Origin: Eledone cirrhosa
Lineage: Eukaryota
NCBI GenBank assembly: GCA_964016885.1
Contig: OZ024742.1
Coordinates: 26,474,001 to 26,538,000 of the forward strand
Length of the DNA stretch: 64,000 nucleotides
Reading direction: 5' to 3'
Positions 15,535 through 62,175 of this stretch are shown here, piece after piece. The position numbers and the translations under genes were made by a program. Under the pieces are notes generated by a model. It made no database searches. It was not told where the DNA came from and saw nothing but the letters and a program-made list of their open reading frames with translations. Positions within the stretch are counted from its first letter, which is position 1. Each line of letters opens with the position of its first letter.

Positions 15535-15732
15535 TATATATATATACGATATTAAATAAATGGAAACTATATTTATAAAACCATATTTATTTCATTATAT
15601 ATATTTCAGGGATATCATATTAAAAATATGTTATGCCTTCCTCAGACAAAATACAATATAAACAGTCTTATAAATAGATAGATTTGACATACCTTTCAAC
15701 TTCAACATCCATTTAAAAAGTTGATTTGCTAG

Positions 15733-17264
15733 TGGAAGGGAACTGGAGAGGTTATTGAGTGGTTTAAAGAAATTAAATATAACAATAATAATAAGTTTAT
15801 TCAACTAGATATTGCTAACTATTATACATCTATTACCCCTAATCTACTAAATAAGGCACTAAATTACGCATTCAAATATACAGACCTAACTAGCAATGAA
15901 ATGCACATTATATTATCGGCTAGGAAAACATTGATAGAATTTAATGACCAACTATGGACCAGAGCAGATAGAGATAACAATTTCGACATTACTATGGAAT
16001 CATCCGACTCAGCTCAGGTAACTGACCTTGTGAGCCTATTTTTAATCAATTCGCTGCATAGGAAAATACCCGGTGCTACCGGAGGTTTATATAGAGATGA
16101 CATGCTTTTACTTATTGAAAATAATAACTCTGAACTAAATAGAAAAAGAAAACAAATTACACAATTTTTTAATTACTTTAATCTAAAATTAGAAATTGAG
16201 AATAACCATAGAATAGTCAATTTCCTAGATGTAACATTAAATCTCAACACATGTCTTCACTATCCATTTCACAAGTTGAATGAAAACTTAAACTATGTCA
16301 GCTTTAACTCTAACCACCCCAGATCTGTTAAAAATACTATAGTAAACTCTGTTCAAAAACGTATCTCTAGAATCTCATCTAATAAAAAGATTTTCGACGA
16401 AAAAGCCCAGTATTACAATGAAGCGTTAGCTAGAGCAGGATATAGTGATAAAAGTATGTACATAGATAATAATAGACAAACTAACCAAAAAAACAACAAT
16501 TTTAATTACGGCAACAACTTTAACAACTATAATAGAAAGCATTACAATAATTGCAAAAGCCAAAAAAGAAATAGAACTAGGAATATAATATGGTTTGCCC
16601 CCCCCCCCCTTTCTCACTAAACATTAAAACCCACATCGCTAAACTATTTGTTAATGCTCTTGAAAATCGCTTCCCTAGAACACATAGGTATCACTCAATT
16701 TTCAATAGACATACTATAAAATTAACCTACTCATCCACCAAAAATTTAGCACAAAATATTAATAGAATAAATAATAGGAATTTAAAACCTAGCCAAAATA
16801 CCGATAATAGCATAAATAATATCCAAGTAAACAAATGTAACTGTAGAGTTAGATCTAAATGTCCGTTAAATAACAATTGCTTAGTTAAAAATATAATATA
16901 CAACTGTAATGTTAAAACGGACTTAAATTCATTTAACTATGTTGGTTCCACCTCGACAGAATTTAAACTTCGCTATAATAACCACAAGAATTCTTTCACA
17001 GATCCAAGCAAAAAATCTTCAACATCACTATCAGGCTTACTCTGGCAACTTAAGCATGATAACGTTGGATATTCGACGGCTTGGAATATAGTCTCAAGAG
17101 GGATTCCTTTTAATTCATCCTCTGAGACATGTGACCTCTGCGCGGAGGAGATATTCTTTATACTAAAATCTAAAAATTCCCTTAATTTACGGACAAATTT
17201 ATTCAGTTGCTGCAGACATAGATTGAACTCAACTTTTAAATATAAATATAAATTTAAAATGTAG
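15733..17264 (+). pseudogene. PLE RT + Zn finger + GIY-YIG endonuclease, truncated, frameshift in poly-C ~16598-16609
   Basis: FIQLDIANYY, FDITM, GLYRDDM, NFLDVTLNL, SNHP, CNCRVRSKCPLNNNCL, IIY..YVGST..FKLRYNNH, CDLC..E, CRH. Clearly homologous to the 820-aa ORF. Confidence 0.9.
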
Positions 17265-18630: not shown

Positions 18631-18696
18631 TATTTTGTCTGAGGAAGGCATAACATATTTTTAATATGATATCCCTGAAATATATATAATGAAATA
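18631..18696 (+). ncRNA. Minimal type-I hammerhead ribozyme in PLE pLTR (inverted copy at 15588-15653, minus)
   Basis: TATTTTGT-CTGAGGA-stemII-GAAA-TATATA-TA-ATGAAATA: stem I complementary with G-U pairs; palindromic stem III. Confidence 0.72.
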
Positions 18697-28767: not shown

Positions 28768-30312
28768 AGATAAATCTACCAAAATATTCCATAGTGTCCA
28801 ATCCGTATGAAGAACTCAATGTAATCCAAATATCATGAAAATAGAAGATGTATTCAACATGTTTTCGATTAAAGACACAGGAATACAGAGTCAAGATAAA
28901 TTAATAAAAATAATGAATAAAAACAAAGAAACAGTTCCTTATATTAAAAATTCATCATTTTACGATCGTTTCTAGGATATATATGTGTGTGTTGGTATGT
29001 ATATCATATAGATCTATGTAAAAATTTTACAAACTATCAGAGGGAATATACATACCTACACATATATATGCTGTCTTCAGAAATAATGATATTTGTTTAT
29101 TGAAAAAAACCAACAAAGATTTAATATAACATGTCTGTTTGCGAACAGGTTTTGAATTGACCAATAGAAAAATAGTAAGTGGTCAAGTTGATAGAATAGT
29201 AGTAATAGAAATTTAATTTAGGGGTAGAGGAATGCAGACTTCAGTTTTGAATGGAAAGAGTATTTTGAATGAAAAGATTACTTTGGGATGAAAATAGGTC
29301 AAGCCGGTGAAAGGTACACGAAAATTTGATGTTATTAATGAATAATGCTAATGTTAAAATCTAAGGAGAATAAAATGTTACGATAAATGTGTTAGTGAAA
29401 AATATCAATCTTATTTAAAACATAAGGAATTTAGATCTATAAAAAGAAATTAAATTAATATAATTGATAGGTATATTTATAGGGATAAATTTATATTAAT
29501 TCGTATAGATATGATAAATAAGAGTTAGGTGTTATTAAAGAATGTTGTTAATAACGAAAGAAACACATTTTCTTTTTTTTTTTGGGGGGGGGGGGATAAA
29601 TGTATTTGTGAGAAATAACAAACTTATATAGATTACAAGGAATTTAGATTCATAACAGGAAATTAAAATAGTTTATATGTATAATTATTGGTATAAATTT
29701 TAGGAAAAGATAGCTGTAAAGGGGAAATAAAATTATGCAGTTCTTAGTAGTAGAATATTAATTATAGGTTAACTAATTTTTAAAAATGAATTATAATAAT
29801 TTGTAAAATATAAGTGTATATTAATTAGGTTTATAATATTTGAAAGTAATTCTAATTCTATGATTGCACGATATAATTAATTCTTGTCGCTTATTTAATA
29901 GGATATTCTTAGATTTCATTATTTCAAAAAATTCCTGGGAACATAATCTACATTCATATCTATTATTGTGATGAGGGGTGGCCCTTTTGAGCACACTCCA
30001 GGTCAGATTATAATCGATATTCTTTTTTCTATAATTATAATTATTTCAGCTAAGGATGTTGTATTAGCTAATGCGGCATTTTTAAAACTGTGTTTGTGGG
30101 TATTAAATCTTATTAATGAGGCAATTTATTTTAATGGGCAATTGAAAGGAAATTGCCTTATTAGTATATAAATTATTAGTATATAAATTTAAAATTAGCA
30201 CTGAGGACTCAACTTATTCATATATAGGAGCTACTTCTAACCAATTTAAAGTAAGATTTAATACCCACAAACACAGTTTTAAAAATGCCGCATTAGCTAA
30301 TGCAACATCCTT
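28768..30312 (-). mobile_element. Naiad-type PLE 3' fragment with 5' inversion
   Basis: Minus strand 29821-30112 encodes RFNTHKHSFKN..TSLAE..ECRLCSQE..LNKRQELIISCNHR. Plus strand ~30125-30312 encodes the upstream GNCL..VYKFKI..YIGATSNQFKVRFNTHKHSF. 30052-30112 and 30252-30312 are inverted duplicates. Confidence 0.8.
28952..29089 (-). ncRNA. Canonical type-I hammerhead ribozyme with long stem II
   Basis: TCATTATTT-CTGAAGA-[~100-nt hairpin]-GAAA-CGATCG-TA-AAATGATGA. Confidence 0.78.
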
Positions 30313-30686
30313 GGAGAAAAAGCTAGACGGGGCATACACACGGATGCTCCTTGCTGCTTTAAACGTGTCTTGGAGGGAACACCCAACAAATAAGGATCTC
30401 TATGGCAATACACCACCTATCAGCACTTCAATACGGAGACAGAGACACAGATTTTCTGGCCACTGTTGGCGCAGCAAGGTAGAAATAGCAGGCGTTGTAT
30501 TGTTATGGAGTCCATCTTATGGAGCAAGAAACGCTGGTCGTCCCAAGAAGACATACGTCAAGCAACTTGAGGACGATACTGGATGCATTGCGAAAGAAAT
30601 GGCAAACGCTGTGAGAGACAGAGATGGATGGAGGAAACGTGTCGTAGAAAGGCGAGCAAGCTCGACCTGATGATGATGATGATGAT
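30311..30686 (+). mobile_element. RTE-clade LINE 3' fragment
   Basis: LDGAYTRMLLAALNVSWREH..RFSGHCWR..GRPKKTY..RDGWR; (TGA)n tail. Confidence 0.88.
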
Positions 30687-34890: not shown

Positions 34891-35809
34891 TAATAACGTC
34901 AGGTCGGGCTTGTGCCTGCTACTTGTACCAGGTACCCCAGTACAACCTGATTCATTGTTGAGTAGACGGCATCTAAACTGGCTCCCCCACAAAATAATGG
35001 TCTGGAGAGGAGAGTAAGTGGAACTCCAACAGCGCAAAAAACGAGAGCTCTTAAAATAGTGGATGAACTCCATAGTGTCAATGGTCATCCACCTCAACTA
35101 TGAGTTAACATTTTAGCATTTGAACCGGCCACATCTGGCCAAAATTCTATCACCTCTGTCTGTAAGCTGACCGTAACCGGTGGCTCATACTTATGTTAAG
35201 GTAATCTTCACTAAATAAATAATATCAAAATCTCATAGATTCGATATTATGTGAGATAAAACCTTTACTGTTAAAATACAATCGTAAATACTAAATACTA
35301 GAGAAATGTAAATGTTAAATAGCCTCAACATCCCGCAATTGGCTAAGCGCAGTGAGTACGACACCTATGACATTTCCAAAACCAAACAGAAAGTGGAGGA
35401 GCTCAACCAGAGAGGGACTCTTCCAACAGGAGTGAAACGCCCTTGGAGTAAATTCCGAATCGGGATTTTCGTTATATCCTCGACCAAGACACTTTTTTTT
35501 GCGTTGTTCCTTCTGCCTCGATTTGCGCACTGTAGAGAATAGCAGTAAGGGTAAGTTCAATGGAAACATTGTTTCATTGGTCGATTTGACGAGGTCCACC
35601 ACATTCTCTGAGCAAATGAGTTCCGGGTTCTTGTCTATTGGTTCTGTATCTTGCTCAATTAAAGAAACACTATTTCTGCGATATTAGGACACATATTTAA
35701 GTCGGGGAGGGTATAGTAGATGATATGCGTCCAATGTACCAAGAAACTACGAGGTAGTGGTGAGAAAGTTTTATACTCATACTTATACAGGTTTATTAAT
35801 GTCCATATA

Positions 35810-35869
<60 letters not shown>

Positions 35870-35874
<5 letters not shown>

Positions 35875-36660
35875 AGTGAGGTTTTTTTTAACAAAATGAA
35901 AATTAACCGAGGTGTCCTACACGAGTGAAAGTATAAAGAAAAAAGATGAAATCGAAAATGCAACTGGAGTCTTATTTTTTTTTAAATATATATATTTATT
36001 TGGTTCCTTTATCGGTTTCGTAGTTCTTCTGCTTTTCAAAAGTAGAGTTGAGATGGAGGGTCTGTGGTTTTTCTCACATCTGGTTGGTCTCTGAATGTTA
36101 CTTCTTTTATATGGAAAAAGTGGTTCGAAATGCCAGGTTTTTCGGGAAGTAATTTGATTGGTTCGTCAATAATTATAATAAATTTCGCGCTAGTTCGCGT
36201 TACAATAGTTCTTCAAATAAGAGGGGTGGGGGGTGTCACAGGTTGTTTTTTCGTATATAAGTGTTTGAATTTCTTTTTACTTGAAAGAAGGGGCTCACGA
36301 AGGCTTTTTTTTTAAATAAGCATAATTTGATTGGTTATAAATGAAATTATAGCTGTCACGCGAACAAGTTTTCATTAAAATTTTCGCGCCCTTATTTGGA
36401 AATCCATGCTGTAGCCTTTTTAGAGAATTTTATGATAAGTAAAAGATAATGGTCAAGAGAAATTGGATGGGAGAATTGTTCTTGTTCAGGGAATATGGTT
36501 AGTTCGCTGGGGTGTCAGAATTCAGATTTTCTATTGAATAAAGAATGTAAAGATATGTATGTTTATTTGTGTGCTTGTGTGTGTGTGCGTGTGTGTGTGT
36601 TGTGTGTCTGTGTTTGAATTTCTTTTTACTTAAAAAAAAGTGGCTCACGAAGGCTTTTTA
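35870..36660 (+). repeat. Dispersed ~750-bp repeat, copy 1 (follows (TA)n)
   Basis: Colinear with 60288-60990; partial inverted copy at 61545-61782. Confidence 0.85.
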
Positions 36661-43823: not shown

Positions 43824-44162
43824 TTAGGTCAGTATTGGTGTTTGGGTGTTGTTGTTATTCCATTCATTTGTTCTGTTTAGCCTTGGCCTTCTAGGTTCGC
43901 TGGCCTCTCTGATATGCCTATCTGCTGGATCATTTCTATGTTTAGATATTATTTTAATTTCTTTGTTGTGTATGTTACCGTCGTGTTGTTTGGCATGTTC
44001 GTATAGTACTGAACCGTTTTTTCGTCCTTTTAGTTCCCCCCAGTGTTGGTCTATCCTTTCACCTATGCTACGAGCTGTCTCGCCTATGTATGTTGTTGTC
44101 ATGTTTCTGCAAGTACCCTCTGTACATCTTATGCTATAGACTACGTTTCTACACGAATACAT
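43824..44162 (-). pseudogene. GIY-YIG endonuclease fragment of a non-Naiad Penelope-like element
   Basis: CRNVVYSIRC..C..YIGETARSIGERIDQH..SVLYEHAKQH..REA..LNR. Confidence 0.8.
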
Positions 44163-44169
44163 ATAATAT

Positions 44170-44915
44170 AAAAACCAGCGGTATGAATAAATGAGTACAA
44201 ATTATCCGCAAGTAAACATACATAAAAGCGGCTCAGGGACAACAGAATATATCTGGAGTTGAAAACGCAAGTGACACAGTATTATCAGGTAGTTAAAGAA
44301 AAGGGGGAAGTAAAATATGTAAAATTGTGATAATATAAAGTAAATCAAAAAGCAGCGTGGGGGGGGGGGGGGGGGCCTACTGATGCATGTGAAGTAAAAA
44401 TAAAGTTAAAAATAAAAATAAAAATACAAGTAAATCAGAAAGAGAAGTCTGTAAACAAGGTAAGTTTAGGAAACTGAAGAATAAGGGTTTATGGAGGATA
44501 AGTATCTGAAAGTGAGTTAAGTTTATATGAGCTGGAAAGCAAGTGTGATTTCATGTGTGGGCAACTGGTGAAAACATCTGTTTTTGCATTTAGGCAGGTT
44601 TTTGTTGATTTAAGGTTCTGTAAAATACAATATTTTTCACTTATGCAGTGTGTGCATCTGCTTTTTCCTCTTGCATATTCTTTAGATTGGTTCAACATTG
44701 ACCAATCTAATTTATATTGGATACCTTGGTCTTTCAAATCACATATTCTGCTAGCCAGAGCTGTTGTAAATCTTTTTTCAGGATGTTGGAAAGATGCGAC
44801 ATGTGAGTAATAACGCGTTTTCAATTTCTCTTGTGTATTACCCACATATCGTTCGCTGGTGGCTGGTAGGTTGTTGCTGGTGGTTGTCACTTTAGCGGCA
44901 TATACAATGGCTTTT
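44170..44915 (-). mobile_element. Naiad-type PLE 3' fragment (GIY-YIG C-terminus + 3' UTR), truncated at (TG)n
   Basis: AIVYAAKV..YVGNTQEKLKTRYYSHVASF..TALASRI..RCTHCISEK..LNAKTDVFTSCPH. Confidence 0.82.
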
Positions 44916-44934
44916 GTGTGTTTGTGTGTGTGTA

Positions 44935-45010
<76 letters not shown>

Positions 45011-45018
45011 TGTGTGTG

Positions 45019-45101
<83 letters not shown>
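44916..45101. repeat. (TG)n microsatellite
   Basis: Direct sequence. Confidence 0.95.
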
Positions 45102-45102
<1 letters not shown>

Positions 45103-45454
45103 ATTAGTAAATTCACTAACAAAAACCAAAATCTCACATACAGACACACAGAAAGAGAGGCAGACAGAAAAATAAATAGGTGGACAATCACAAATACTGT
45201 GAACTTATAAAATAGGTTCAGATTAAAACGGGCAGAGCCTCTATATTCATCTATCTAATCAGGACTCTCAAATGTCTAAAATACAGCAAAACATACATCA
45301 CAGAGAACTTTTATAAAGCAACATAACTGCCGAACTGCTTAACATAACACACACTCTGCATATGAATATTTGAAAGATATATAGATATGTGTATGCATGT
45401 ATGGATGGTTAGACGTATATCTGTATGATAGATGTATGTGTGTAAGTCTGTATG

Positions 45455-48755: not shown

Positions 48756-49417
48756 ATATATATATATAGTCGCGTACGTACGTGTGATTAGATATACATG
48801 GGGCGATACATATATATGTACGTGCCTCGTGTGTATGTATGTACGCATACATGCGCTTTTGTCTGTACGTATTTGTGTGTATAAATATTTTTTATATATA
48901 TATGTGTATGTACGTGCGTACCTATGTTTGTTTTCTTTTCTCTAGTGTTAATTGATTACTTTCTCTTTGATTTAAACATTTTTCATTCTCATATATGGTT
49001 TCATTTTTATACATATATCGAGAATGACACTTCTTTTTATTATTACACTCCCTTCCCCCTTTATATTCCGCATATAAGTGACCGCGCGTGTATGTGTGTT
49101 TATACGCCCGCTTTCATACTCGTATGTGTATTTAATACCTGTATCTGGATGCGTGTCAACTATATTATCATACATTTTCTTTTTCAACTCATATTATATA
49201 CGTATTTGCCCTCATATATGTACTTACGCACACATTTTCACCATACACATGCATTGGTACATACACACATATGTACATTTGTGAGTGTATATACATACAT
49301 ATACACATACCTTAACTATATTTCCTTATATATTTTTATATATCACTTTTCATTACTTTTATTTATATATTTGTTGCATTTCTTGAGGAGACTTTCCAAA
49401 TATTTCACTATGTTTTA

Positions 49418-49495
49418 AATTGCCTTGTCCGACAAACGAATGACGACGTTTTTCGTATTCGTCTTATTCGGGAAACCTCTGGTAATGAGGTAATT
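49418..49495 (+). ncRNA. Hammerhead-like motif with CCGA core in a solo pLTR-like segment
   Basis: AATTGCCTTGT-CCGACAA-stemII-GAAA-CCTCTGG-TA-ATGAGGTAATT. Downstream ACATAGAGCACTCT tail is shared with 19443-19456. Confidence 0.55.
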
Positions 49496-49731
49496 ATATT
49501 GTATTGTTTATTATACATTACATTTTGTTCTGGTACTTACATAGAGCACTCTACACTCCTCTGACTTTTTCAATTATGAACGGAAACTTCAATACTTATA
49601 TATATATGTAGGAGGTGAGTTTTATTGTAGTACAATAAAGCAATGCAGATATCGGATAAGAAGCACTCTACAGTTTGTGGGACTGGAGTATGCATAATAT
49701 AAGATCAAAAGATGGTTAAAGGAGTTCAATA

Positions 49732-49802
49732 TATTTTATTATGCGCATTTCAAAAACAAACATCATCAAATAATAATATTTGTGTTTTCATCAGATAAAA
49801 CA
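49732..49802 (-). ncRNA. Minimal type-I hammerhead ribozyme, array unit 1
   Basis: TGTTTTAT-CTGATGA-AAACACAAATATTATTA..TGATGATGTTTGTTTTT-GAAA-TGCGCA-TA-ATAAAATA. Confidence 0.85.
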
Positions 49803-51041
49803 GGAGAACATGATATGAAGGCTAAAAAAACACTTGTTGATAGTGCAGTTTTAAATCAACATATGAAAAGTGGTTTTAGATTGATGTGTGATATTGGGAA
49901 AAATATTTTATTTAGAGAGGGGGGAGAGAAAAGGATGAAAAGGGAAGGAGATGAGAGGGAGAGATGGGTGATAGAGAGAAAGAGATAGTTTTTATAACAG
50001 AGAGGAGATATATTTTATATAGAGGGGTTGAAAACCGTTGGAAGATACTGTATAAATTAAAAATTTTGAAAATTAACGAAGGGAGGATATGTGCGAGGAA
50101 AAAATATATTATATTTAGGGAGGGGTGGGGGTGGAAAGGATGAAAAAAAGGGGAGGAGATGAGAGTGAAGGTGGAAAGGGAGAGATGGGTGATAGAGAGA
50201 AAGAGATAGTTTTTATAACTGAGAAAAAGATATAATGTTTTAATATAGAGAGGTTGGGAACCGTTGGAAGATAATGTATAAATTAAAGGAATTTGAAAAT
50301 TAACGAAGGGAAATTATGTATGGAGATAGAGAGAAAAAAATAACGAAGGGAGATTATGTATGGAGATAGAGAGAAAAAAATAATAATAATTGTGGGTGAA
50401 TATTCTAACGTCAAAAGGAGAAATGTAGGAATTTTAAAATTAGCAAAGAGAAAAAGTTTATGTGTAGGATTTGAGAAAAATAATGTGAAGTTAAAGTTTT
50501 TATATTGAATTCATATGTATTAATAATGAGTTCGTTGATGGGGAGAAAAAAATAATAATAAATTAGGGATGAAATTGAGATTAAAAAGATTGATGATAGA
50601 GAGAAAAAATAATAATGATTGCGGATGAATACTCAAAATGTCAAAAACAAATGTTATTGTTTTACGAGGAGATATAATGAGGGTGATGAGTAAACGGGTA
50701 TTATAGAGTGTATAATGCCCTTTAAAGTAAGGTAGATGGGTATATTTTAAAGAATATATGAGTATATATTAAAAAAAATATATATATAATAATAAATTAA
50801 GGATGAAATTGAGATTAAAAAGATTTATGATAGAGGGAAAAAATAATAATGATTGCGGATGAATATTCAAAATGTCAAAAACAAATGTTATTGTTTACGA
50901 GAAGATAGGATGCGGGAAAAGAGTAAACGAGTATTATAGAGTGTATAATGCCCTTTAAAGTAAGGTAGATGGGTATATTTTAAAGAGGTGTATGTATATG
51001 TGCCTTTGAGAAAAGATTCTAAATTGATAAAGAATTGAATA

Positions 51042-53504
51042 TTAACTGTATACTTTGTGAAAAGTTCTATGGAATTTATGCAGGCAGATGGAAAACAAAT
51101 CCGAGCGTCTATTTATTATGGATTCTAGGTTAGAGATAATGGTAAATTTTTCATTTAGGCAAAGATTACAGATTTTAGATAGGGAACTGTTCAAGTACGA
51201 GGATGCAGAAGAAATCTTTTTCCAAAAGATGTTATATTTAATGTTTTTGTCTTTTAAGGACCATATGAGTTCTGAGAGAGCAGTGTTAGTTTTTTTAAGT
51301 TTGTATTTGAAAGATGAATGATGATTATAGAGACGAGCTTTAAAAGAGGTGGAAGTGGAGCCAAAATAGGTGAAGGAATTGGTGCTAGTTATAATTTTAC
51401 ATTCATAGATTAAGTTTTTATCGAGGCAGTGGTTGTTGAGAGGACATTTATTTTTAATGCGGCAGTTGCAATTAGAGAGATTATTAATGAGTGATCTAGT
51501 GTTATCTATAGAAGGAATTGGATTGGAGAAGTTGTTTGCGATAGGAATAATAGGAATAATAGTTTCTTGATTTAGAGTTGGATTATGAACATTTAGCGAA
51601 GTTGTGTTTGACGTTGCATTTGGGTTTACAGAAGTTAGCCTAGGGTTTACAATGACGTCAGGAGTACTATTATTGTTATTATGAGATTCAATATTGGAAG
51701 GAAGAGATTTAGTATTTAATATTTTGTTGTTGTGTTTAGAAATGATGTTGGAAATATTGGAGGATGTAGAATACGAAAATTTGATGGTGTGTTTGTTAAA
51801 TATTTTACTATAGATATGTGAGGGAGGGAAGCATTTATTTAAGGCACTAAAAAATAATTTAGGAATATTGTTATTAATAGAGATGGAGAAAGGAGCATTA
51901 TACCAGATTATGTTTTTGTATCTAGGTCTTTTATTAAGATTATTGGAATGGTTATGATTAAATATTCTACTGTAAGTTTTCCTAGAATTTGTTTCTTTAT
52001 TATATTTGATTTTATCTGGATAGCCGGCTTTAGAAAGTGCGTTATTATAGTAATTGGCGTTAGCATCAAAGATGTTTTTATTAGAAGATATGTTAGATAT
52101 TCTATTTCCAATATTATTAACTATAGCATTCTTGATATTGGTAGGATGGTTAGATTTAAAGTTAACATAATTAAGATTCTCATTGTTTTTATGGTAAGGG
52201 TAATATAGGCCAGTGTCAAGGTTAAGAGATACATCCAAGAAATTAGCTAGTTTGGTACTATTATCAAATTCAATTTTTAGGTTATGTTGGTTAAAGAGAT
52301 TACGTATATTGTTCTTAATAATATTAAGTTTAACTATATTGCAATTTAGGATAGTAAAGAGTCCATCGTCACGATAAATTCCACCGCGAAGTTGAGGAAT
52401 TTTCCGACTCAAAGAGTTCAAAATGAAGATACCAATTAAATCAGTCAATTGGGATGAATCGGATGCTCCCATTGTGATGTCGAAGTTGTTAGAGGTATCG
52501 GCTCTGGTCCAATATTCGTTGTTGAACTCTAGGATGGTTTTACGTGCGGTGAGGATGATGTGAAGTTCATCTGTGGTGATGTCAGAATATTTAAGTGCGA
52601 AAGATAGAGCATTATTGAGAAGTGAAGGCGAAATGGAGGAATAGTAGCTGGCAATATCGAATTGAATAAATTTTAGTTTGTTTTTATTATCCAATTTGTT
52701 GAACCAGCCAATCACTTCAGAAGTACCAAACCATAAATTTAGGTTTAAAGAAGAGCAATTAGAACTAACCTGTGGGATAATCCTATCCAAGATGGCTTTA
52801 CTAACAACCCCCAGATCAGATTTAGAGGGGGCGATTAATCTAACAGGTAGTTCAGTGCGAAAATTGTTTTTGTGATCCTTGAGATTTATCCTCGGAGTTC
52901 TTGGGAGGAATGGTTCGGTCTTTTTTTCAATGCCAAGTTTTGACATAATCTCATAGGCTTCAAGGTTTATGCATTCTAAATTTTCATGGTTGGTTTTACG
53001 ATACTTTTTCCTAAGTTCCTTTAGGATAAGGTTGTTATAATTATCCTTGGAAATACCATATAGGTTATTGGTTTTGTCAGAGTGGACTAAAACATTTTTT
53101 GAGGAATTTAGGTTAGAGATTGTGTTCTTGAGATTTACAAGGTGCTCTTGTCCTTTGTAAGGGTATCTCTTGAATTTAAGATTTTTTATAATTTTAGTTA
53201 ATTCTTCCTCGAATTGTGCTAGATTTTTGTTGGAAGGAGGATTTCGTCTGGAATTAAAAAGATGATCGAGGAAGTTGTGTTCTTTGGTATGAAAGTTCCC
53301 TTTTAGGCGCTGGTCATAGAAATAGGCTGTCCATCTAAGTCTTCTTACGAAGGAGTCAGTTTTTTCAATAAGAAGTTTGGTGAATTCAGATTTACCAGGT
53401 ATAGGAATGTCTTTAGTAGAATTGGTTATGTTGTAATAATCCATGTTGTAGAAGAAGAGGTGAAGGACCATCAAAAGGTATCCAATATGAGAGTAAGCGC
53501 TCAA
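51042..53504 (-). CDS. Penelope-like (Naiad-type) reverse transcriptase + GIY-YIG endonuclease, intact, copy 1
   Basis: 820 aa with no stops: STKDIPIP, SDKTNNLY, KDHK, RLIAPSKS, FIQFDIASYY, GIYRDDG, NFLDV, SNHP, CNCRIKNKCPLNNHCL, LIY..YFGST..FKARLYNH, CNLCLNEK, CLH. The true start is probably the ATG at 53444 or 53471 rather than the TTG. Confidence 0.93.
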   Translation of the reverse strand: MSAYSHIGYLLMVLHLFFYNMDYYNITNSTKDIPIPGKSEFTKLLIEKTDSFVRRLRWTAYFYDQRLKGNFHTKEHNFLDHLFNSRRNPPSNKNLAQFEEELTKIIKNLKFKRYPYKGQEHLVNLKNTISNLNSSKNVLVHSDKTNNLYGISKDNYNNLILKELRKKYRKTNHENLECINLEAYEIMSKLGIEKKTEPFLPRTPRINLKDHKNNFRTELPVRLIAPSKSDLGVVSKAILDRIIPQVSSNCSSLNLNLWFGTSEVIGWFNKLDNKNKLKFIQFDIASYYSSISPSLLNNALSFALKYSDITTDELHIILTARKTILEFNNEYWTRADTSNNFDITMGASDSSQLTDLIGIFILNSLSRKIPQLRGGIYRDDGLFTILNCNIVKLNIIKNNIRNLFNQHNLKIEFDNSTKLANFLDVSLNLDTGLYYPYHKNNENLNYVNFKSNHPTNIKNAIVNNIGNRISNISSNKNIFDANANYYNNALSKAGYPDKIKYNKETNSRKTYSRIFNHNHSNNLNKRPRYKNIIWYNAPFSISINNNIPKLFFSALNKCFPPSHIYSKIFNKHTIKFSYSTSSNISNIISKHNNKILNTKSLPSNIESHNNNNSTPDVIVNPRLTSVNPNATSNTTSLNVHNPTLNQETIIPIIPIANNFSNPIPSIDNTRSLINNLSNCNCRIKNKCPLNNHCLDKNLIYECKIITSTNSFTYFGSTSTSFKARLYNHHSSFKYKLKKTNTALSELIWSLKDKNIKYNIFWKKISSASSYLNSSLSKICNLCLNEKFTIISNLESIINRRSDLFSICLHKFHRTFHKVYS

Positions 53505-53648
53505 CCGTTAAGGAGCAAGTAAATGTAGGAGGTGAGTTTTATTGTAGTGCAATAAAGCAATGCAGATATCGGATAAGAAGCACTCTACAGTTTGTGGGAC
53601 TGGAGTATGCATAATATAAGATCAAAAGATGGTTAAAGGAGTTCAATA

Positions 53649-53719
53649 TATTTTATTATGCGCATTTCAAAAACAAACATCATCAAATAATAATATTTGT
53701 GTTTTCATCAGATAAAACA
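53649..53719 (-). ncRNA. Hammerhead ribozyme, array unit 2
   Basis: Same sequence as 49732-49802. Confidence 0.85.
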
Positions 53720-54959
53720 GGAGAACATGATATGAAGGCTAAAAAAACACTTGTTGATAGTGCAGTTTTAAATCAACATATGAAAAGTGGTTTTAGATTG
53801 ATGTGTGATATTGGGAAAAATATTTTATTTAGAGAGGGGGGGAGAGAAAAGGATGAAAAGGGAAGGAGATGAGAGGGAGAGATGGGTGATAGAGAGAAAG
53901 AGATAGTTTTTATAACAGAGAGGAGATATATTTTATATAGAGGGGTTGAAAACCGTTGGAAGATACTGTATAAATTAAAAATTTTGGAAATTAACGAAGG
54001 GAGGATATGTGCGAGGAAAAAATATATTATATTTAGGGAGGGGTGGGGGTGGAAAGGATGAAAAAAAGGGGAGGAGATGAGAGTGAATGTGGAAAGGGAG
54101 AGATGGGTGATAGAGAGAAAGAGATAGTTTTTATAACTGAGAAAAAGATATAATGTTTTAATATAGAGAGGTTGGGAACCGTTGGAAGATAATGTATAAA
54201 TTAAAAGAATTTGAAAATTAACGAAGGGAAATTATGTATGGAGATAGAGAGAAAAAAAATAACGAAGGGAGATTATGTATGGAGATAGAGAGAAAAAAAT
54301 AATAATAATTGTGGGTGAATATTCTAACGTCAAAAGGAGAAATGTAGGAATTTTAAAATTAGCAAAGAGAAAAAGTTTATGTGTAGGATTTGAGAAAAAT
54401 AATGTGAAGTTAAAGTTTTTATATTGAATTCATATGTATTAATAATGAGTTCGTTGATGGGGAGAAAAAAATAATAATAAATTAGGGATGAAATTGAGAT
54501 TAAAAAGATTGATGATAGAGAGAAAAATAATAATGATTGCGGATGAATACTCAAAATGTCAAAAACAAATGTTATTGTTTTACGAGGAGATATAATGAGG
54601 GTGATGAGTAAACGGGTATTATAGAGTGTATAATGCCCTTTAAAGTAAGGTAGATGGGTATATTTTAAAGAATATATGAGTATATATTAAAAAAAAAATA
54701 TATATAATAATAAATTAAGGATGAAATTGAGATTAAAAAGATTTATGATAGAGGGAAAAAATAATAATGATTGCGGATGAATATTCAAAATGTCAAAAAC
54801 AAATGTTATTGTTTACGAGAAGATAGGATGCGGGAAAAGAGTAAACGAGTATTATAGAGTGTATAATGCCCTTTAAAGTAAGGTAGATGGGTATATTTTA
54901 AAGAGGTGTATGTATATGTGCCTTTGAGAAAAGATTCTAAATTGATAAAGAATTGAATA

Positions 54960-57422
54960 TTAACTGTATACTTTGTGAAAAGTTCTATGGAATTTATGCA
55001 GGCAGATGGAAAACAAATCCGAGCGTCTATTTATTATGGATTCTAGGTTAGAGATAATGGTAAATTTTTCATTTAGGCAAAGATTACAGATTTTAGATAG
55101 GGAACTGTTCAAGTACGAGGATGCAGAAGAAATCTTTTTCCAAAAGATGTTATATTTAATGTTTTTGTCTTTTAAGGACCATATGAGTTCTGAGAGAGCA
55201 GTGTTAGTTTTTTTAAGTTTGTATTTGAAAGATGAATGATGATTATAGAGACGAGCTTTAAAAGAGGTGGAAGTGGAGCCAAAATAGGTGAAGGAATTGG
55301 TGCTAGTTATAATTTTACATTCATAGATTAAGTTTTTATCGAGGCAGTGGTTGTTGAGAGGACATTTATTTTTAATGCGGCAGTTGCAATTAGAGAGATT
55401 ATTAATGAGTGATCTAGTGTTATCTATAGAAGGAATTGGATTGGAGAAGTTGTTTGCGATAGGAATAATAGGAATAATAGTTTCTTGATTTAGAGTTGGA
55501 TTATGAACATTTAGCGAAGTTGTGTTTGACGTTGCATTTGGGTTTACAGAAGTTAGCCTAGGGTTTACAATGACGTCAGGAGTACTATTATTGTTATTAT
55601 GAGATTCAATATTGGAAGGAAGAGATTTAGTATTTAATATTTTGTTGTTGTGTTTAGAAATGATGTTGGAAATATTGGAGGATGTAGAATACGAAAATTT
55701 GATGGTGTGTTTGTTAAATATTTTACTATAGATATGTGAGGGAGGGAAGCATTTATTTAAGGCACTAAAAAATAATTTAGGAATATTGTTATTAATAGAG
55801 ATGGAGAAAGGAGCATTATACCAGATTATGTTTTTGTATCTAGGTCTTTTATTAAGATTATTGGAATGGTTATGATTAAATATTCTACTGTAAGTTTTCC
55901 TAGAATTTGTTTCTTTATTATATTTGATTTTATCTGGATAGCCGGCTTTAGAAAGTGCGTTATTATAGTAATTGGCGTTAGCATCAAAGATGTTTTTATT
56001 AGAAGATATGTTAGATATTCTATTTCCAATATTATTAACTATAGCATTCTTGATATTGGTAGGATGGTTAGATTTAAAGTTAACATAATTAAGATTCTCA
56101 TTGTTTTTATGGTAAGGGTAATATAGGCCAGTGTCAAGGTTAAGAGATACATCCAAGAAATTAGCTAGTTTGGTACTATTATCAAATTCAATTTTTAGGT
56201 TATGTTGGTTAAAGAGATTACGTATATTGTTCTTAATAATATTAAGTTTAACTATATTGCAATTTAGGATAGTAAAGAGTCCATCGTCACGATAAATTCC
56301 ACCGCGAAGTTGAGGAATTTTCCGACTCAAAGAGTTCAAAATGAAGATACCAATTAAATCAGTCAATTGGGATGAATCGGATGCTCCCATTGTGATGTCG
56401 AAGTTGTTAGAGGTATCGGCTCTGGTCCAATATTCGTTGTTGAACTCTAGGATGGTTTTACGTGCGGTGAGGATGATGTGAAGTTCATCTGTGGTGATGT
56501 CAGAATATTTAAGTGCGAAAGATAGAGCATTATTGAGAAGTGAAGGCGAAATGGAGGAATAGTAGCTGGCAATATCGAATTGAATAAATTTTAGTTTGTT
56601 TTTATTATCCAATTTGTTGAACCAGCCAATCACTTCAGAAGTACCAAACCATAAATTTAGGTTTAAAGAAGAGCAATTAGAACTAACCTGTGGGATAATC
56701 CTATCCAAGATGGCTTTACTAACAACCCCCAGATCAGATTTAGAGGGGGCGATTAATCTAACAGGTAGTTCAGTGCGAAAATTGTTTTTGTGATCCTTGA
56801 GATTTATCCTCGGAGTTCTTGGGAGGAATGGTTCGGTCTTTTTTTCAATGCCAAGTTTTGACATAATCTCATAGGCTTCAAGGTTTATGCATTCTAAATT
56901 TTCATGGTTGGTTTTACGATACTTTTTCCTAAGTTCCTTTAGGATAAGGTTGTTATAATTATCCTTGGAAATACCATATAGGTTATTGGTTTTGTCAGAG
57001 TGGACTAAAACATTTTTTGAGGAATTTAGGTTAGAGATTGTGTTCTTGAGATTTACAAGGTGCTCTTGTCCTTTGTAAGGGTATCTCTTGAATTTAAGAT
57101 TTTTTATAATTTTAGTTAATTCTTCCTCGAATTGTGCTAGATTTTTGTTGGAAGGAGGATTTCGTCTGGAATTAAAAAGATGATCGAGGAAGTTGTGTTC
57201 TTTGGTATGAAAGTTCCCTTTTAGGCGCTGGTCATAGAAATAGGCTGTCCATCTAAGTCTTCTTACGAAGGAGTCAGTTTTTTCAATAAGAAGTTTGGTG
57301 AATTCAGATTTACCAGGTATAGGAATGTCTTTAGTAGAATTGGTTATGTTGTAATAATCCATGTTGTAGAAGAAGAGGTGAAGGACCATCAAAAGGTATC
57401 CAATATGAGAGTAAGCGCTCAA
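54960..57422 (-). CDS. Penelope-like (Naiad-type) RT + GIY-YIG, intact, copy 2
   Basis: Translation appears identical to copy 1. Confidence 0.93.
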   Translation of the reverse strand: MSAYSHIGYLLMVLHLFFYNMDYYNITNSTKDIPIPGKSEFTKLLIEKTDSFVRRLRWTAYFYDQRLKGNFHTKEHNFLDHLFNSRRNPPSNKNLAQFEEELTKIIKNLKFKRYPYKGQEHLVNLKNTISNLNSSKNVLVHSDKTNNLYGISKDNYNNLILKELRKKYRKTNHENLECINLEAYEIMSKLGIEKKTEPFLPRTPRINLKDHKNNFRTELPVRLIAPSKSDLGVVSKAILDRIIPQVSSNCSSLNLNLWFGTSEVIGWFNKLDNKNKLKFIQFDIASYYSSISPSLLNNALSFALKYSDITTDELHIILTARKTILEFNNEYWTRADTSNNFDITMGASDSSQLTDLIGIFILNSLSRKIPQLRGGIYRDDGLFTILNCNIVKLNIIKNNIRNLFNQHNLKIEFDNSTKLANFLDVSLNLDTGLYYPYHKNNENLNYVNFKSNHPTNIKNAIVNNIGNRISNISSNKNIFDANANYYNNALSKAGYPDKIKYNKETNSRKTYSRIFNHNHSNNLNKRPRYKNIIWYNAPFSISINNNIPKLFFSALNKCFPPSHIYSKIFNKHTIKFSYSTSSNISNIISKHNNKILNTKSLPSNIESHNNNNSTPDVIVNPRLTSVNPNATSNTTSLNVHNPTLNQETIIPIIPIANNFSNPIPSIDNTRSLINNLSNCNCRIKNKCPLNNHCLDKNLIYECKIITSTNSFTYFGSTSTSFKARLYNHHSSFKYKLKKTNTALSELIWSLKDKNIKYNIFWKKISSASSYLNSSLSKICNLCLNEKFTIISNLESIINRRSDLFSICLHKFHRTFHKVYS

Positions 57423-57566
57423 CCGTTAAGGAGCAAGTAAATGTAGGAGGTGAGTTTTATTGTAGTGCAATAAAGCAATGCAGATATCGGATAAGAAGCA
57501 CTCTACAGTTTGTGGGACTGGAGTATGCATAATATAAGATCAAAAGATGGTTAAAGGAGTTCAATA

Positions 57567-57637
57567 TATTTTATTATGCGCATTTCAAAAACAAACATCA
57601 TCAAATAATAATATTTGTGTTTTCATCAGATAAAACA
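57567..57637 (-). ncRNA. Hammerhead ribozyme, array unit 3
   Basis: Same sequence as 49732-49802. Confidence 0.85.
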
Positions 57638-58880
57638 GGAGAACATGATATGAAGGCTAAAAAAACACTTGTTGATAGTGCAGTTTTAAATCAACATATG
57701 AAAAGTGGTTTTAGATTGATGTGTGATATTGGGAAAAATATTTTATTTAGAGAGGGGGGGAGAGAAAAGGATGAAAAGGGAAGGAGATGAGAGGGAGAGA
57801 TGGGTGATAGAGAGAAAGAGATAGTTTTTATAACAGAGAGGAGATATATTTTATATAGAGGGGTTGAAAACCGTTGGAAGATACTGTATAAATTAAAAAT
57901 TTTGGAAATTAACGAAGGGAGGATATGTGCGAGGAAAAAATATATTATATTTAGGGAGGGGTGGGGGTGGAAAGGATGAAAAAAAGGGGAGGAGATGAGA
58001 GTGAATGTGGAAAGGGAGAGATGGGTGATAGAGAGAAAGAGATAGTTTTTATAACTGAGAAAAAGATATAATGTTTTAATATAGAGAGGTTGGGAACCGT
58101 TGGAAGATAATGTATAAATTAAAAGAATTTGAAAATTAACGAAGGGAAATTATGTATGGAGATAGAGAGAAAAAAAATAACGAAGGGAGATTATGTATGG
58201 AGATAGAGAGAAAAAAATAATAATAATTGTGGGTGAATATTCTAACGTCAAAAGGAGAAATGTAGGAATTTTAAAATTAGCAAAGAGAAAAAGTTTATGT
58301 GTAGGATTTGAGAAAAATAATGTGAAGTTAAAGTTTTTATATTGAATTCATATGTATTAATAATGAGTTCGTTGATGGGGAGAAAAAAATAATAATAAAT
58401 TAGGGATGAAATTGAGATTAAAAAGATTGATGATAGAGAGAAAAATAATAATGATTGCGGATGAATACTCAAAATGTCAAAAACAAATGTTATTGTTTTA
58501 CGAGGAGATATAATGAGGGTGATGAGTAAACGGGTATTATAGAGTGTATAATGCCCTTTAAAGTAAGGTAGATGGGTATATTTTAAAGAATATATGAGTA
58601 TATATTAAAAAAAAATATATATATATAATAATAAATTAAGGATGAAATTGAGATTAAAAAGATTTATGATAGAGGGAAAAAATAATAATGATTGCGGATG
58701 AATATTCAAAATGTCAAAAACAAATGTTATTGTTTACGAGAAGATAGGATGCGGGAAAAGAGTAAACGAGTATTATAGAGTGTATAATGCCCTTTAAAGT
58801 AAGGTAGATGGGTATATTTTAAAGAGGTGTATGTATATGTGCCTTTGAGAAAAGATTCTAAATTGATAAAGAATTGAATA

Positions 58881-59620
58881 TTAACTGTATACTTTGTGAA
58901 AAGTTCTATGGAATTTATGCAGGCAGATGGAAAACAAATCCGAGCGTCTATTTATTATGGATTCTAGGTTAGAGATAATGGTAAATTTTTCATTTAGGCA
59001 AAGATTACAGATTTTAGATAGAGAACTGTTCAAGTACGAGGATGCAGAAGAAATCTTTTTCCAAAAGATGTTATATTTAATGTTTTTGTCTTTTAAGGAC
59101 CATATGAGTTCTGAGAGAGCAGTGTTAGTTCTTTTAAGTTTGTATTTGAAAGATGAATGATGATTATAGAGACGAGCTTTAAAAGAGGTGGAAGTGGAGC
59201 CAAAATAGGTGAAGGAATTGGTGCTAGTTATAATTTTACATTCATAGATTAAGTTTTTATCGAGGCAGTGGTTGTTGAGAGGACATTTATTTTTAATGCG
59301 GCAGTTGCAATTAGAGAGATTATTAATGAGTGATCTAGTGTTATCTATAGAAGGAATTGGATTGGAGAAGTTGTTTGCGATAGGAATAATAGGAATAATA
59401 GTTTCTTGATTTAGAGTTGGATTATGAACATTTAGCGAAGTTGTGTTTGACGTTGCATTTGGGTTTACAGAAGTTAGCCTAGGGTTTACAATGACGTCAG
59501 GAGTACTATTATTGTTATTATGAGATTCAATATTGGAAGGAAGAGATTTAGTATTTAATATTTTGTTGTTGTGTTTAGAAATGATGTTGGAAATATTGGA
59601 GGATGTAGAATACGAAAATT
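58881..59620 (-). pseudogene. 5'-truncated copy 3 (linker + GIY-YIG only)
   Basis: Matches the C-terminal ~246 aa apart from K>R (KLKRT); joined to the inverted segment. Confidence 0.9.
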
Positions 59621-60100
59621 TATACATTATCTTCCAACGGTTCCCAACCTCTCTATATTAAAACATTATATCTTTTTCTCAGTTATAAAAACTATCTCTT
59701 TCTCTCTATCACCCATCTCTCCCTTTCCACCTTCACTCTCATCTCCTCCCCTTTTTTTCATCCTTTCCACCCCCACCCCTCCCTAAATATAATATATTTT
59801 TTCCTCGCACATATCCTCCCTTCGTTAATTTTCAAAATTTTTAATTTATACAGTATCTTCCAACGGTTTTCAACCCCTCTATATAAAATATATCTCCTCT
59901 CTGTTATAAAAACTATCTCTTTCTCTCTATCACCCATCTCTCCCTCTCATCTCCTTCCCTTTTCATCCTTTTCTCCCCCCCCCCTCTCTAAATAAAATAT
60001 TTTTCCCAATATCACACATCAATCTAAAACCACTTTTCATATGTTGATTTAAAACTGCACTATCAACAAGTGTTTTTTTAGCCTTCATATCATGTTCTCC

Positions 60101-60171
60101 TGTTTTATCTGATGAAAACACAAATATTATTATTTGATGATGTTTGTTTTTGAAATGCGCATAATAAAATA
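60101..60171 (+). ncRNA. Hammerhead ribozyme in the inverted cap
   Basis: Same motif, read directly on the plus strand. Confidence 0.85.
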
Positions 60172-60201
60172 TATTGAACTCCTTTAACCATCTTTTGATC
60201 T

Positions 60202-60287
<86 letters not shown>

Positions 60288-60293
<6 letters not shown>

Positions 60294-61776
60294 GTGAGTT
60301 TTTTTTTAACAAAATGAAAAATAACTGTGGTGTCCTACACGAGTGAAAGTATAAAGAAAAAAAGATGAAATCGAAAATGCAAATGGAGTCTTATTTTTAA
60401 AAAAATATATATATTTATTTGGTTCCTTTACCGGTTTCGCAGTTCTTCTGCTTTTCAAAAGTAGAGTTGAGATGGAGGGTCTGTGGTTTTTCTCACATCT
60501 GGTTGGTCTCTGAATGTTACTTGTTTTATATGGAAACATGTGACTCGAAATGCCAGGTTTTTAGAGAAGTATTTTGATTGGTTGGTCAATAAGTATAATA
60601 AATTTCGCGCCAGTTCGCGTTACAAAGTTCTTCAAGCAAGGGGGGGGGGGGGGCACAGGTTGTTTTTTTCATATATGAGTGTTTGAATTTCTTTTTACTT
60701 AAAGAAAGGGGGCTCACGAAGGCTTTTTTTTAAATAAACGTAATTTGATTGGTTATAAATGAAATTATGGCTGTCACGTGAACAAGTTTTCATTAAATTT
60801 TCGCGCCCTTATTTGGAAATCTATTCTGTAGCCTTTTTAGAGAATTTTATGACAAGCAAAAGATAATGGTCAAGAGAAATGGGATGGGAGAATTGTTCTG
60901 GTTCAGTGAATATGGGGTGTCAGAATTCAGATTTTCTATTGAAGTAAAGAAAGTAAAGATGTGTATGTTTACTTGTGTGCTTGTGTGTGTGTGTGTGTGT
61001 GTGTGTATTGGAAGATGATTCTATTAGTAGAAATGGGGGAGGGAGTTGTGTGTGTGTGTATATTGGTGTTATATGTGTGTGTGTGGGAGTATGTTAAGAT
61101 GGAGAGAATATATATATGTTGTGTGTGTGTATATATATGTGTGTAGGAAAGTGATTCTATTAGTAGAAATGGGGAAGGGAGTTGTGTGTGTGTGTGGGGA
61201 GGTGGGTTATGTGTGTGTGTATGGGTGTTATGTGTGTGGGAGTATGGTTAGCATGTTAAGATAAGAGAATATATATATATATATATATATTGTGTGTCTG
61301 TGTGTGTAGGAAAATGATTCCTTTAGTAGGAATATTTTTGAATGAACATATTTTCCTTACTTATTCGTATTTGTTCTGTTGTATTGTCAGCGCAAACGTT
61401 TGTTAAGGTTTATTTAGTTCGGCTTTTTATTTTCTAAAGTAGCAGGTGTTAAGTGTGTGTTTATATGTCTGTTTGGATGGGTAGCATGTTATGGTGTTGA
61501 AATAATGTATATTAAACCATATTTAATACTGGTCAATATTTTTGAATAAACCAATCAAATTACTTTTCTAAAAACCTGGCATTTCGAGCCACTTTTTTCC
61601 ATATGAAACAAGTAACATTCAGAGATCAACCAGATTTGAGAAAAACCACAGACCCTCCATCTCAACTCTACTTTTGAAAAGCAGAAGAACTGCGAAACCG
61701 GTAAAGGAACCAAATAAATATACATATATATTTTTAAAAGAAGACTCCAGTTGCATTTTCGATTTCATCTCTTTTT

Positions 61777-61870: not shown

Positions 61871-62175
61871 GCAAAAGTTCTATTTACATTGTTGGGATAC
61901 AACAAGTAAATATTTTTATAACTGATATAAAGAACTCGACACGTATTTGGAGTAGATATACGATATTAACAAATGGAAACTATATTTATAAAACCATATT
62001 TATTTCATTATACATATTTCAAGGATACCAAGTTAAATTATGGTATGCCTTCATCAGACAAAATACAATATATATCAGTTTTATAAATAACCATTGACGT
62101 ACCCTTTCAAAATGCGACCACTACTTTTGGAGGACATCCTGATGTCCTCCAAAAGTAATGGTCGCATTATAAATA
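61869..62175 (-). mobile_element. Solo PLE pLTR (family of 18550-18826) with hammerhead at 62001-62065
   Basis: Reverse complement aligns to ~18590-18826; TATTTTGT-CTGATGA-AGGCATACCA..TGGTATCCTT-GAAA-TATGTA-TA-ATGAAATA; flanked by (TA)n. Confidence 0.82.

What the first reader, a model, noticed from the sequence alone, without database searches (positions are those of the whole stretch)
49606..60207. Very young, intact tandem Naiad-type PLE array with a ribozyme once per unit
Two complete 820-aa ORFs that appear identical plus a truncated third, with only a handful of substitutions between units, in an otherwise decayed landscape. Each unit carries a canonical hammerhead. In transcript orientation the ribozymes of units 2 and 3 lie ~150-220 nt upstream of the next ORF, so a read-through transcript would be cut into ~3.9-kb monomers. 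The palindromic stem III (AUGCGCAU) is the type proposed to work as dimers. The concatemer fits rolling reverse transcription of a circular/monomer RNA or template jumping (inference). Best candidate for an active element here. The DKT, KDHK and CxCx5CP motifs fit the Naiad clade (Craig et al. 2021).
Basis: partly seen in the sequence, partly recalled or inferred. Interest (0 to 1): 0.75.

Follow-up and report, generated by a model that had tools for sequence, protein, structure and literature searches.

The report
Young Hydra-clade Penelope array, twin-primed
This is a young, intact tandem copy of a known kind of jumping gene (Hydra-clade Penelope-like, not Naiad) whose short end motif occurs about ten thousand times in the genome, and the ends of its sister copies show two fixed end points used one per side, which likely means two copying starts on a single RNA, with full-length copies likely made from an endless, possibly ribozyme-cut circular template.

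Summary
It is Hydra-clade, not Naiad: C-terminal GIY-YIG, DKT, CxCx5C, no CCHH. The family is a young burst (10,623 exact 3'-end matches, 46 exact head-to-tail junctions, 36 of 43 full-length ORFs intact). The window's middle unit is a chimera of mutations private to its two neighbours, so it is likely a later one-period duplication, not a turn of rolling reverse transcription. Family-wide evidence is more telling: 47 of 51 and 24 of 25 two-armed insertions use one each of two fixed ends; arms share one haplotype; 36 of 92 ordinary arms stop at a fixed point upstream of the ribozyme and none at the predicted cut, while 0 of 42 arms in full-length insertions stop there; two ribozyme-less mini-arrays repeat one new junction in both arms. 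Likely mechanism: paired priming on one RNA; uncut linear RNA gives short palindromes, an endless template gives full units. No RNA data. The scan already noted Hydra identity, twin hairpins and single templates on other families of this genome.

The parts
49607..60209 (.). whole insertion: 2.55 tandem units plus inverted arm, between (TA)n runs
49607..53523 (-). unit U1 (unit coordinates u1=53523, u3917=49607); ends at the long 'T' end
53524..57441 (-). unit U2; ORF alleles of U1, UTR alleles of U3; likely a later one-period duplication
57442..59621 (-). unit U3, 5'-truncated at u1742 (pseudo-LTR of U2)
59617..60209 (+). inverted arm u3240-3830, ends at the short 'S' end; joined to U3 by about 5 nt of overlap
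51042..53471 (-). ORF, 809 aa (likely start Met10 at 53444): telomerase-like RT, N-rich linker, C-terminal GIY-YIG
54960..57389 (-). second ORF, identical to the first
58881..59621 (-). 3' remnant of the ORF in U3 (linker and endonuclease)
51075..51470 (-). CxCx5C linker motif and GIY-YIG endonuclease with R713, H717, E774, N787, CxxC and CxH (aa 668-799)
51471..51716 (-). 82-aa Asn-rich low-confidence linker; 8-19 aa in 35 of 37 homologs
49734..49800 (-). type I hammerhead motif, predicted cut after 49740
53651..53717 (-). type I hammerhead motif, predicted cut after 53657
57569..57635 (-). type I hammerhead motif, predicted cut after 57575
60103..60169 (+). fourth hammerhead motif, in the inverted arm, predicted cut after 60163
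53777..53787 (-). fixed 5' stop point of short copies (u3654-3664, peak u3660 = 53781; also 49864, 57699, 60039): inferred RNA 5' end
49607..49696 (-). [quoted passage not shown]
53583..53606 (-). predicted hairpin 7 nt past the S end (also 49666-49689, 57501-57524)
53499..53516 (-). predicted hairpin 7 nt past the T end, lying in the next unit (also 57417-57434)
50552..50986 (-). 234-bp internal duplication in the 1.43-kb 3' UTR (repeated in U2 and U3)
49597..49606 (.). left (TA)n target remnant
60202..60287 (.). right (TA)n target run

Best explanation
This is an intact Hydra-clade Penelope-like retrotransposon sitting in a (TA)n run, likely made by two reverse-transcription starts on one RNA, one from each end of the cut target, with its middle unit likely added later by a one-period DNA duplication. 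Shown: domain order and motifs, two fixed ends (u3917 'T', u3827-3830 'S') used one per side, one haplotype per insertion, a fixed 5' stop at u3660 in short copies and none in full-length ones, a chimeric U2. Inferred mechanism: transcription begins at about u3660 in the upstream pseudo-LTR; the protein binds the RNA at two similar hairpins, cuts both strands of (TA)n and primes cDNA 7 nt before each hairpin. The T hairpin lies in the next unit, so T priming would need junction-spanning RNA. On uncut linear RNA both cDNAs run off the 5' end after 170 and 260 nt and are joined into the common short palindrome. When two hammerheads 3.9 kb apart cut (predicted as a dimer) and the monomer is ligated, the template has no end, so copying can pass the junction and yield full units with a pseudo-LTR of any length, as in U1 plus U3. 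My odds: Hydra membership 0.97; paired priming on one RNA 0.7; endless template is a ribozyme-made circle 0.5; U2 a later duplication 0.7.
For: Clade; fold closest to telomerases (5 of the first 8 rows). Ends: 47 of 51 readable two-armed insertions in a sample of all exact hammerhead hits in the first 56.6 Mb of C1 have one T and one S end (p 1e-10 against 0.5); 24 of 25 among full-length insertions; 110 of 114 ends abut TA repeats; the same two ends appear as loose ends in an independent run. One template: 37 differences in 75,953 sites within insertions against 0.47% between them; short T arms pile up near the S start (12 of 23 at u3795-3840). RNA 5' end: 36 of 114 arms stop at u3654-3664, 0 at u3780-3790; 22 such palindromic junctions have 14 different fillers, so they are separate events. 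Endless template: 0 of 42 arm ends that reach that point in full-length insertions stop there, against 36 of 92 (p 1e-7); mini-arrays L021 and L022 repeat one new junction 8 and 4 times across both arms; 11 of 13 T-ended full units differ by 2 or more sites from every other multi-junction array examined. Dimer fold -34.9 against 2 x -11.4 kcal/mol. Two internal RT starts bounding the tail are shown in vitro for a Poseidon element (PMC11167929). U2: private alleles u2232, u2341 are shared with U1 only and u3236, u3354, u3455, u3892 with U3 only; the lineage sisters carry the ancestral state.
Against: No copy end marks the predicted cut (0 of 114 and 0 of 33); the nearest is L022, 3-4 nt off, and the L021 repeat starts 34 nt off. 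In the Poseidon system hammerhead mutants inserted normally, unprocessed RNA was the main substrate, no RNA reads ended at the cut, and the two strands did not differ in start site. The hammerhead alignment has no two-sided changes and does not beat its shuffles. A jump between the two pseudo-LTRs of an uncut RNA explains the missing stop equally well. Same haplotype shows same source locus, not strictly same molecule; L181 has arms of two haplotypes; 4 of 51 and 1 of 25 insertions break the one-of-each rule. The pile-up windows were chosen after seeing the data (7 of 15, p 0.02, in the unbiased sample alone). For U2, all 6 private substitutions fall in the duplicated block (p 0.04, or 0.007 on the shared stretch), and the three units differ at the A/TA run at u2745, so a two-template origin or an assembly error is not excluded.
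Confidence: 0.62

Rival explanations
1. Same element and paired priming, but the ribozyme plays no part in copying: the template is uncut RNA with a pseudo-LTR at each end, and RT that reaches the 5' end jumps by homology to the downstream pseudo-LTR of the same molecule, or long read-through RNA from multi-unit parents is copied.
For: No ends at the predicted cut; hammerhead dispensable in vitro for Poseidon; five multi-junction arrays exist; fits the shared haplotype and the missing u3660 stop.
Against: The mini-arrays repeat an exact new junction 8 and 4 times without once entering sequence upstream of it, while run-off junctions at u3660 are heterogeneous; 11 of 13 T-ended full units have no identical multi-junction array among the five seen.
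Confidence: 0.33
2. The inverted arm is made by fold-back of one cDNA, and the two fixed ends come from endonuclease cuts that resolve the intermediate, as proposed for the tail in Craig et al. 2021 and for self-priming in Arkhipova et al. 2013.
For: Gives one haplotype per insertion and one end of each kind; self-priming is argued in PMC3846280 (passages) and resolution by the endonuclease in PMC8557442.
Against: Short palindromes have both arms stopping at u3660 with variable filler; either end can be on the long arm, and inversion junctions fall at many positions; in vitro the tail is bounded by two RT starts.
Confidence: 0.15
3. The three-unit array in this window is an assembly error that duplicated one period; the real insertion has one full unit, one truncated unit and the inverted arm.
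For: The block from U3's UTR through U2's ORF matches the block from U2's UTR through U1's ORF except at one A/TA run.
Against: No gap in the window; four other loci have two exact junctions; the units differ at u2745 in three ways.
Confidence: 0.15
4. One reading: a Naiad whose three units are successive turns on one circular monomer.
For: Units are 99.4-99.8% alike; the four other multi-unit arrays differ by 0-1 unmasked substitution between full units.
Against: Every Naiad-defining feature tested fails; turns on one circle cannot give alleles shared by U2+U3 only and others by U1+U2 only.
Confidence: 0.03

Closest known systems
Hydra clade of Penelope-like elements (Craig et al. 2021, PMC8557442; e.g. 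Hydra-1_Obim, Hydra-1_Amil)
   Same: C-terminal GIY-YIG, DKT, CxCX5C, CxxC and CxH around E and N, no CCHH, canonical hammerhead near the 3' end, (TA)n target; the supplement's Hydra proteins show DKT and KDHK.
   Different: Unit 3.9 kb against 'generally <3 kb' (longest listed 3,045 bp); RWT for RWK; 82-aa Asn-rich linker; 1.43-kb 3' UTR; tail 87-90 nt against the 30-40 bp described for PLEs.
Poseidon element PAc of Anolis carolinensis (Frangieh et al. 2024, PMC11167929)
   Same: Two internal RT start sites bounding the tail; RNA downstream of the start needed; both target strands extended; AT-rich target; hammerhead in the pseudo-LTR.
   Different: Other clade; starts lie inside the ORF there and upstream of it here; no strand difference in start site reported there, whereas here each insertion uses one of each.
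Naiad clade (PMC8557442)
   Same: Tandem and inverted arrangement, one-sided tail, (TA)n target, similar length (3.4-4.4 kb), very high copy number.
   Different: Naiads have an N-terminal endonuclease, DKA, CCHH and no canonical hammerhead.
Circular-RNA model for PLE tandems (Cervera and de la Pena 2014, PMC4209133)
   Same: Proposes self-cleavage, ligation and more-than-unit reverse transcription; dimeric folds for weak stem III.
   Different: Offered there as a tentative role; here genomic end statistics and mini-arrays bear on it, and show a second, uncut template class.
Asn-rich inserts of Adineta vaga Penelope families (PMC3846280)
   Same: In-frame Asn-rich insert between RT and endonuclease (passage).
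   Different: 1.5 kb there, about 0.2 kb here.

Membership tests
Hydra clade PLE | Single ORF, RT then C-terminal GIY-YIG endonuclease | tested here: met
   RT motifs at aa 271-370, IY..YFG at 688-704, R713 H717 E774 N787 invariant in 37 of 38 rows; telomerase-like fold. Pfam gave no relevant hit.
Hydra clade PLE | DKG modified to DKT | tested here: met
   D132 K133 T134
Hydra clade PLE | RWK motif near the N-terminus | tested here: inconclusive
   RWT here; K in 28 of 38 aligned rows at that column
Hydra clade PLE | Linker CxCX5C; CxxC and CxH around E and N; CCHH absent | tested here: met
   C668 C670 C676; C768 C771; C796 H798; only one, unconserved Cys between GIY and YIG
Hydra clade PLE | Canonical hammerhead near the 3' end | tested here: met
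   same layout as the paper's table; cleavage itself untested
Hydra clade PLE | (TA)n insertion | tested here: met
   110 of 114 ends
Hydra clade PLE | RT groups with Hydra references in a tree | not testable with these tools
   Reference proteins were read in the supplement by eye only; no tree built
Hydra clade PLE | No insertion-in-fingers domain | not tested
   Motif A to B distance is 63 aa but no reference distance was available
Naiad clade PLE | N-terminal GIY-YIG endonuclease | tested here: not met
   Endonuclease at aa 687-799; 2 Cys in the first 250 aa
Naiad clade PLE | DKA motif, CCHH finger, CxC domain before RT | tested here: not met
   DKT; no CCHH; no CxC before RT
Naiad clade PLE | No canonical hammerhead | tested here: not met
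   Four motifs
Non-LTR retrozyme | Non-coding tandem repeat with a hammerhead per unit | tested here: not met
   The array encodes RT; the mini-arrays L021 and L022 lack the hammerhead

The most novel reading that the evidence does not exclude
A Penelope-like element that switches template by its ribozyme: uncut linear RNA is primed twice and yields thousands of short palindromes, while RNA with two hammerheads is cut, circularised and rolled by two coupled reverse transcriptases, the only route to a full-length copy with a new pseudo-LTR. The family would be the first autonomous PLE with a genomic record of both routes, including ribozyme-less mini-circles rolled from both target ends.
Probability: 0.4. 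Interest if true: 0.72.

Novelty: new member of a known kind. Interest (0 to 1): 0.48.

Why it matters
How Penelope-like elements make pseudo-LTRs, inverted arms and one-sided tails, and what their hammerheads do, is open: the one in vitro system found the ribozyme dispensable (PMC11167929) and the circle model is a proposal (PMC4209133). This family has dozens of intact, near-identical ORFs, fixed and countable ends, and a predicted RNA 5' end, cut site and two start sites, so paired priming and circle versus jump can be tested directly. The window itself is an ordinary member, and its third unit is a caution against reading tandem units as proof of rolling.

Tried and rejected
Rfam at gathering score: no match in 64 kb. 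Pfam: one irrelevant weak hit. Strict hammerhead descriptor: missed the four motifs, so its shuffle control is void; replaced. Monomer folding is only mildly better than shuffles (z -2.0; z -1.3 for the 341-nt junction region) and does not give the ribozyme core as minimum-energy fold. Covariation: none two-sided, 345 of 500 shuffles as high. The bacterial promoter scan does not apply. Homodimer prediction of residues 10-495: no verdict. Sequencing runs: no RNA holder listed. Runs under other organism labels hold 99%-like pieces at low depth with no library record; not taken as horizontal transfer. Insertion polymorphism: the left flank is itself an old repeat, inconclusive. Idea that the window array is the parent of its lineage, which would have tested the circle by allele u3892: rejected, sisters lack its private alleles. 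Idea that the mini-arrays are retrozymes: rejected, no hammerhead; back-splicing: no GT after u75 or u88. Idea that the short palindromes are one MITE amplified whole: rejected, 14 fillers in 22 junctions, and they carry lineage alleles of long copies. Selenocysteine recoding: no in-frame stop. Literature searches for a prior report: 'Penelope' + 'twin priming' gave 3 unrelated papers; a five-term circle search from 2020 gave 0; some searches gave the papers cited. Lunse et al. 2017 was seen only as a reference entry and could not be read. Rows left out: L055 and 11 neighbouring pieces of separate insertions, homopolymer sites and pairs under 250 sites; L098 (damaged end); 9 of 34 full-length insertions without two readable ends.
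Full report
Anatomy. The element reads on the minus strand. U1 (49607-53523) and U2 (53524-57441) are full units, U3 (57442-59621) is cut at u1742, and an inverted copy of u3240-3830 follows at 59617-60209. Both ends lie in (TA)n, so no target duplication can be read. The two ORFs are identical, 809 aa from ATG. The model is confident (mean pLDDT 84.5) and 5 of its first 8 structural matches are telomerases. All 70 sequence relatives are at most 40% identical, and the only one with an organism name is from Argonauta hians.

Clade. I read sections 3, 6, 11 and 12, selected passages, and parts of the supplement of Craig et al. 2021 (PMC8557442). Naiads have an N-terminal endonuclease, DKA, CCHH and no canonical hammerhead. 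Hydra elements have a C-terminal endonuclease, RWK, DKT, CxCX5C, CxxC and CxH, no CCHH, a hammerhead and (TA)n targets. The protein has all Hydra motifs except RWT for RWK. It is longer than the listed Hydra families because of a 1.43-kb UTR and an 82-aa Asn-rich linker.

Ribozyme. Four identical type I motifs have a 6-bp stem I, a long bulged stem II and a palindromic stem III. In 45 distinct copies 98.6% of cells pair; 7 of 15 stem II pairs vary on one side only, none on both, and the shuffles do as well, so the family is too young for covariation. Two copies fold together at -34.9 kcal/mol with swapped stems I and III, against -11.4 each alone. Cleavage is predicted, not shown.

Family. The 3-Gb genome holds 10,623 exact matches to a 33-mer at the 3' end, 9,413 to a ribozyme 31-mer and 46 to the head-to-tail junction; five loci, this one included, have two junctions about 3.9 kb apart. 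Of 43 full-length units examined 36 keep the 809-aa frame, with 39 synonymous and 30 non-synonymous variants. Full-length copies differ by a median of 10 unmasked sites. An independent run shows the same steep excess of ends over ORF starts and loose ends at the same two positions.

Two fixed ends, one per side. Insertions end at u3917 (T) or u3827-3830 (S). In 59 loci taken from all exact ribozyme hits in the first 56.6 Mb of contig C1, 52 insertions have two arms; 47 of 51 readable ones have one T and one S end; the three T/T cases each include an arm under 85% identity. Among full-length insertions the count is 24 of 25. A one-sided tail is known, and Frangieh et al. 2024 (PMC11167929, main text and part of the methods read) showed in vitro that it lies between two internal RT starts. 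The strict pairing here implies that both starts are used in one event. Pieces of one insertion differ at 0.05% of sites against 0.47% between insertions (pairs are not independent), and short T arms tend to stop near the S start (12 of 23), as if the two enzymes met on one molecule. Following earlier notes of this scan I folded the RNA past each end: a similar hairpin starts 7 nt after both, and the T hairpin belongs to the next unit.

Two template classes. Of 114 arms in the unbiased sample 36 stop at u3654-3664, 70 nt upstream of the ribozyme core, and none at the predicted cut; a few arms scored at u3645-3647 are probably the same stop. The junctions carry variable filler (14 kinds in 22). 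These copies include the ribozyme uncut, so their template was likely linear RNA starting at u3660. In insertions that hold a full unit, 0 of 42 arm ends that reach this point stop there. Their template did not end there. Two mini-arrays, L021 (u3819-3917 plus u1-88) and L022 (u3788-3917 plus u1-75), repeat one new junction 8 and 4 times over both arms and have T and S ends: multi-turn copying of a tiny template from both sides. A ribozyme-made circle, proposed in PMC4209133 (first part and passages read), explains this; a homology jump between pseudo-LTRs explains most of it too.

The window's own array. Alleles u2232 and u2341 are shared by U1 and U2 only; u3236, u3354, u3455, u3892 and a one-base deletion by U2 and U3 only; none occurs in the 33 other full-length insertions, a search with two of them found only the window's two exact copies among 40 scored of 942 candidates, and the six clear lineage sisters among 35 loci fetched carry the ancestral states wherever they cover these sites. 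Turns on one circle cannot give this. An unequal crossover between u2341 and u2915 after insertion does, in one step. The original insertion would be U1, U3 and the inverted arm. It still runs from T through a full unit and on to u1742, well past u3660, so it belongs to the endless-template class. No daughter of this copy was found, so nothing marks it as the active master.

Other papers seen: PMC3846280 and PMC7761336 (passages); bioRxiv 10.64898/2026.07.22.740005 (first fifth; its supplements not seen). Earlier notes of this scan report Hydra identity, twin hairpins, two fixed ends and single, possibly circular templates for other families in this genome; none matches this family's junction sequence. 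They are unreviewed and are not counted as support.

Verdict. Real feature, new member of the Hydra clade, interest 0.48. The clade call and the rolling reading of this particular array fail; the family's end statistics make the ribozyme and paired-priming questions testable.

Noticed in passing
L021 (G000:C13:36269500-36270850) and L022 (G000:C2:216011650-216012500): Ribozyme-less mini-arrays of 185 and 204 bp spanning the head-to-tail junction, palindromic overall, with T and S ends; L022's repeat starts 3-4 nt after the predicted cut.
   Followed up: yes
window 15733-17264 (+): Older frameshifted Hydra-type ORF, about 65% nucleotide identity to the RT, with the same CxCx5C motif.
   Followed up: no
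window 15596-15645 (-), 18639-18688 (+), 25933-25986 (-), 62009-62057 (-): Four more type I hammerhead-like motifs of other families.
   Followed up: no
window 30146-30670 (+), 43824-44201 (-), 44489-45103 (-): GIY-YIG-like endonuclease remnants of other Penelope-like families, judged by eye from translations.
   Followed up: no
window 741-3166 (-) and 4208-11417 (+): Decayed non-LTR retrotransposon frames of two other kinds, judged by eye.
   Followed up: no
window 60220-61006 and 35805-36600: A 0.8-kb repeat pair, 91% alike, the first directly beyond the right TA run.
   Followed up: no
window 49350-49596: The left flank is itself an abundant older repeat ending in (TA)n, so the insertion is nested at the end of another element.
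   Followed up: partly
L061, L062; L058, L059, C5:0.59, C13:33.30: Two S-ended arms stop after exactly one unit length (u3824-3827) and four stop at u1, the T start: possible collisions with a primer on the same template.
   Followed up: partly
L181 (G000:C3:141225900-141230500): The two arms carry different haplotypes, an exception to the one-template rule.
   Followed up: no
L035 and L129: Near-perfect palindromic insertions with S at both ends, possibly DNA-level fold-backs.
   Followed up: no
L158, L164, L172: Substitutions private to one insertion but present in both arms; template-borne variants or arm-to-arm conversion.
   Followed up: no
runs X4, X5, X7: Contigs about 99% alike under other organism labels, at low depth, library not on record.
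   Followed up: partly
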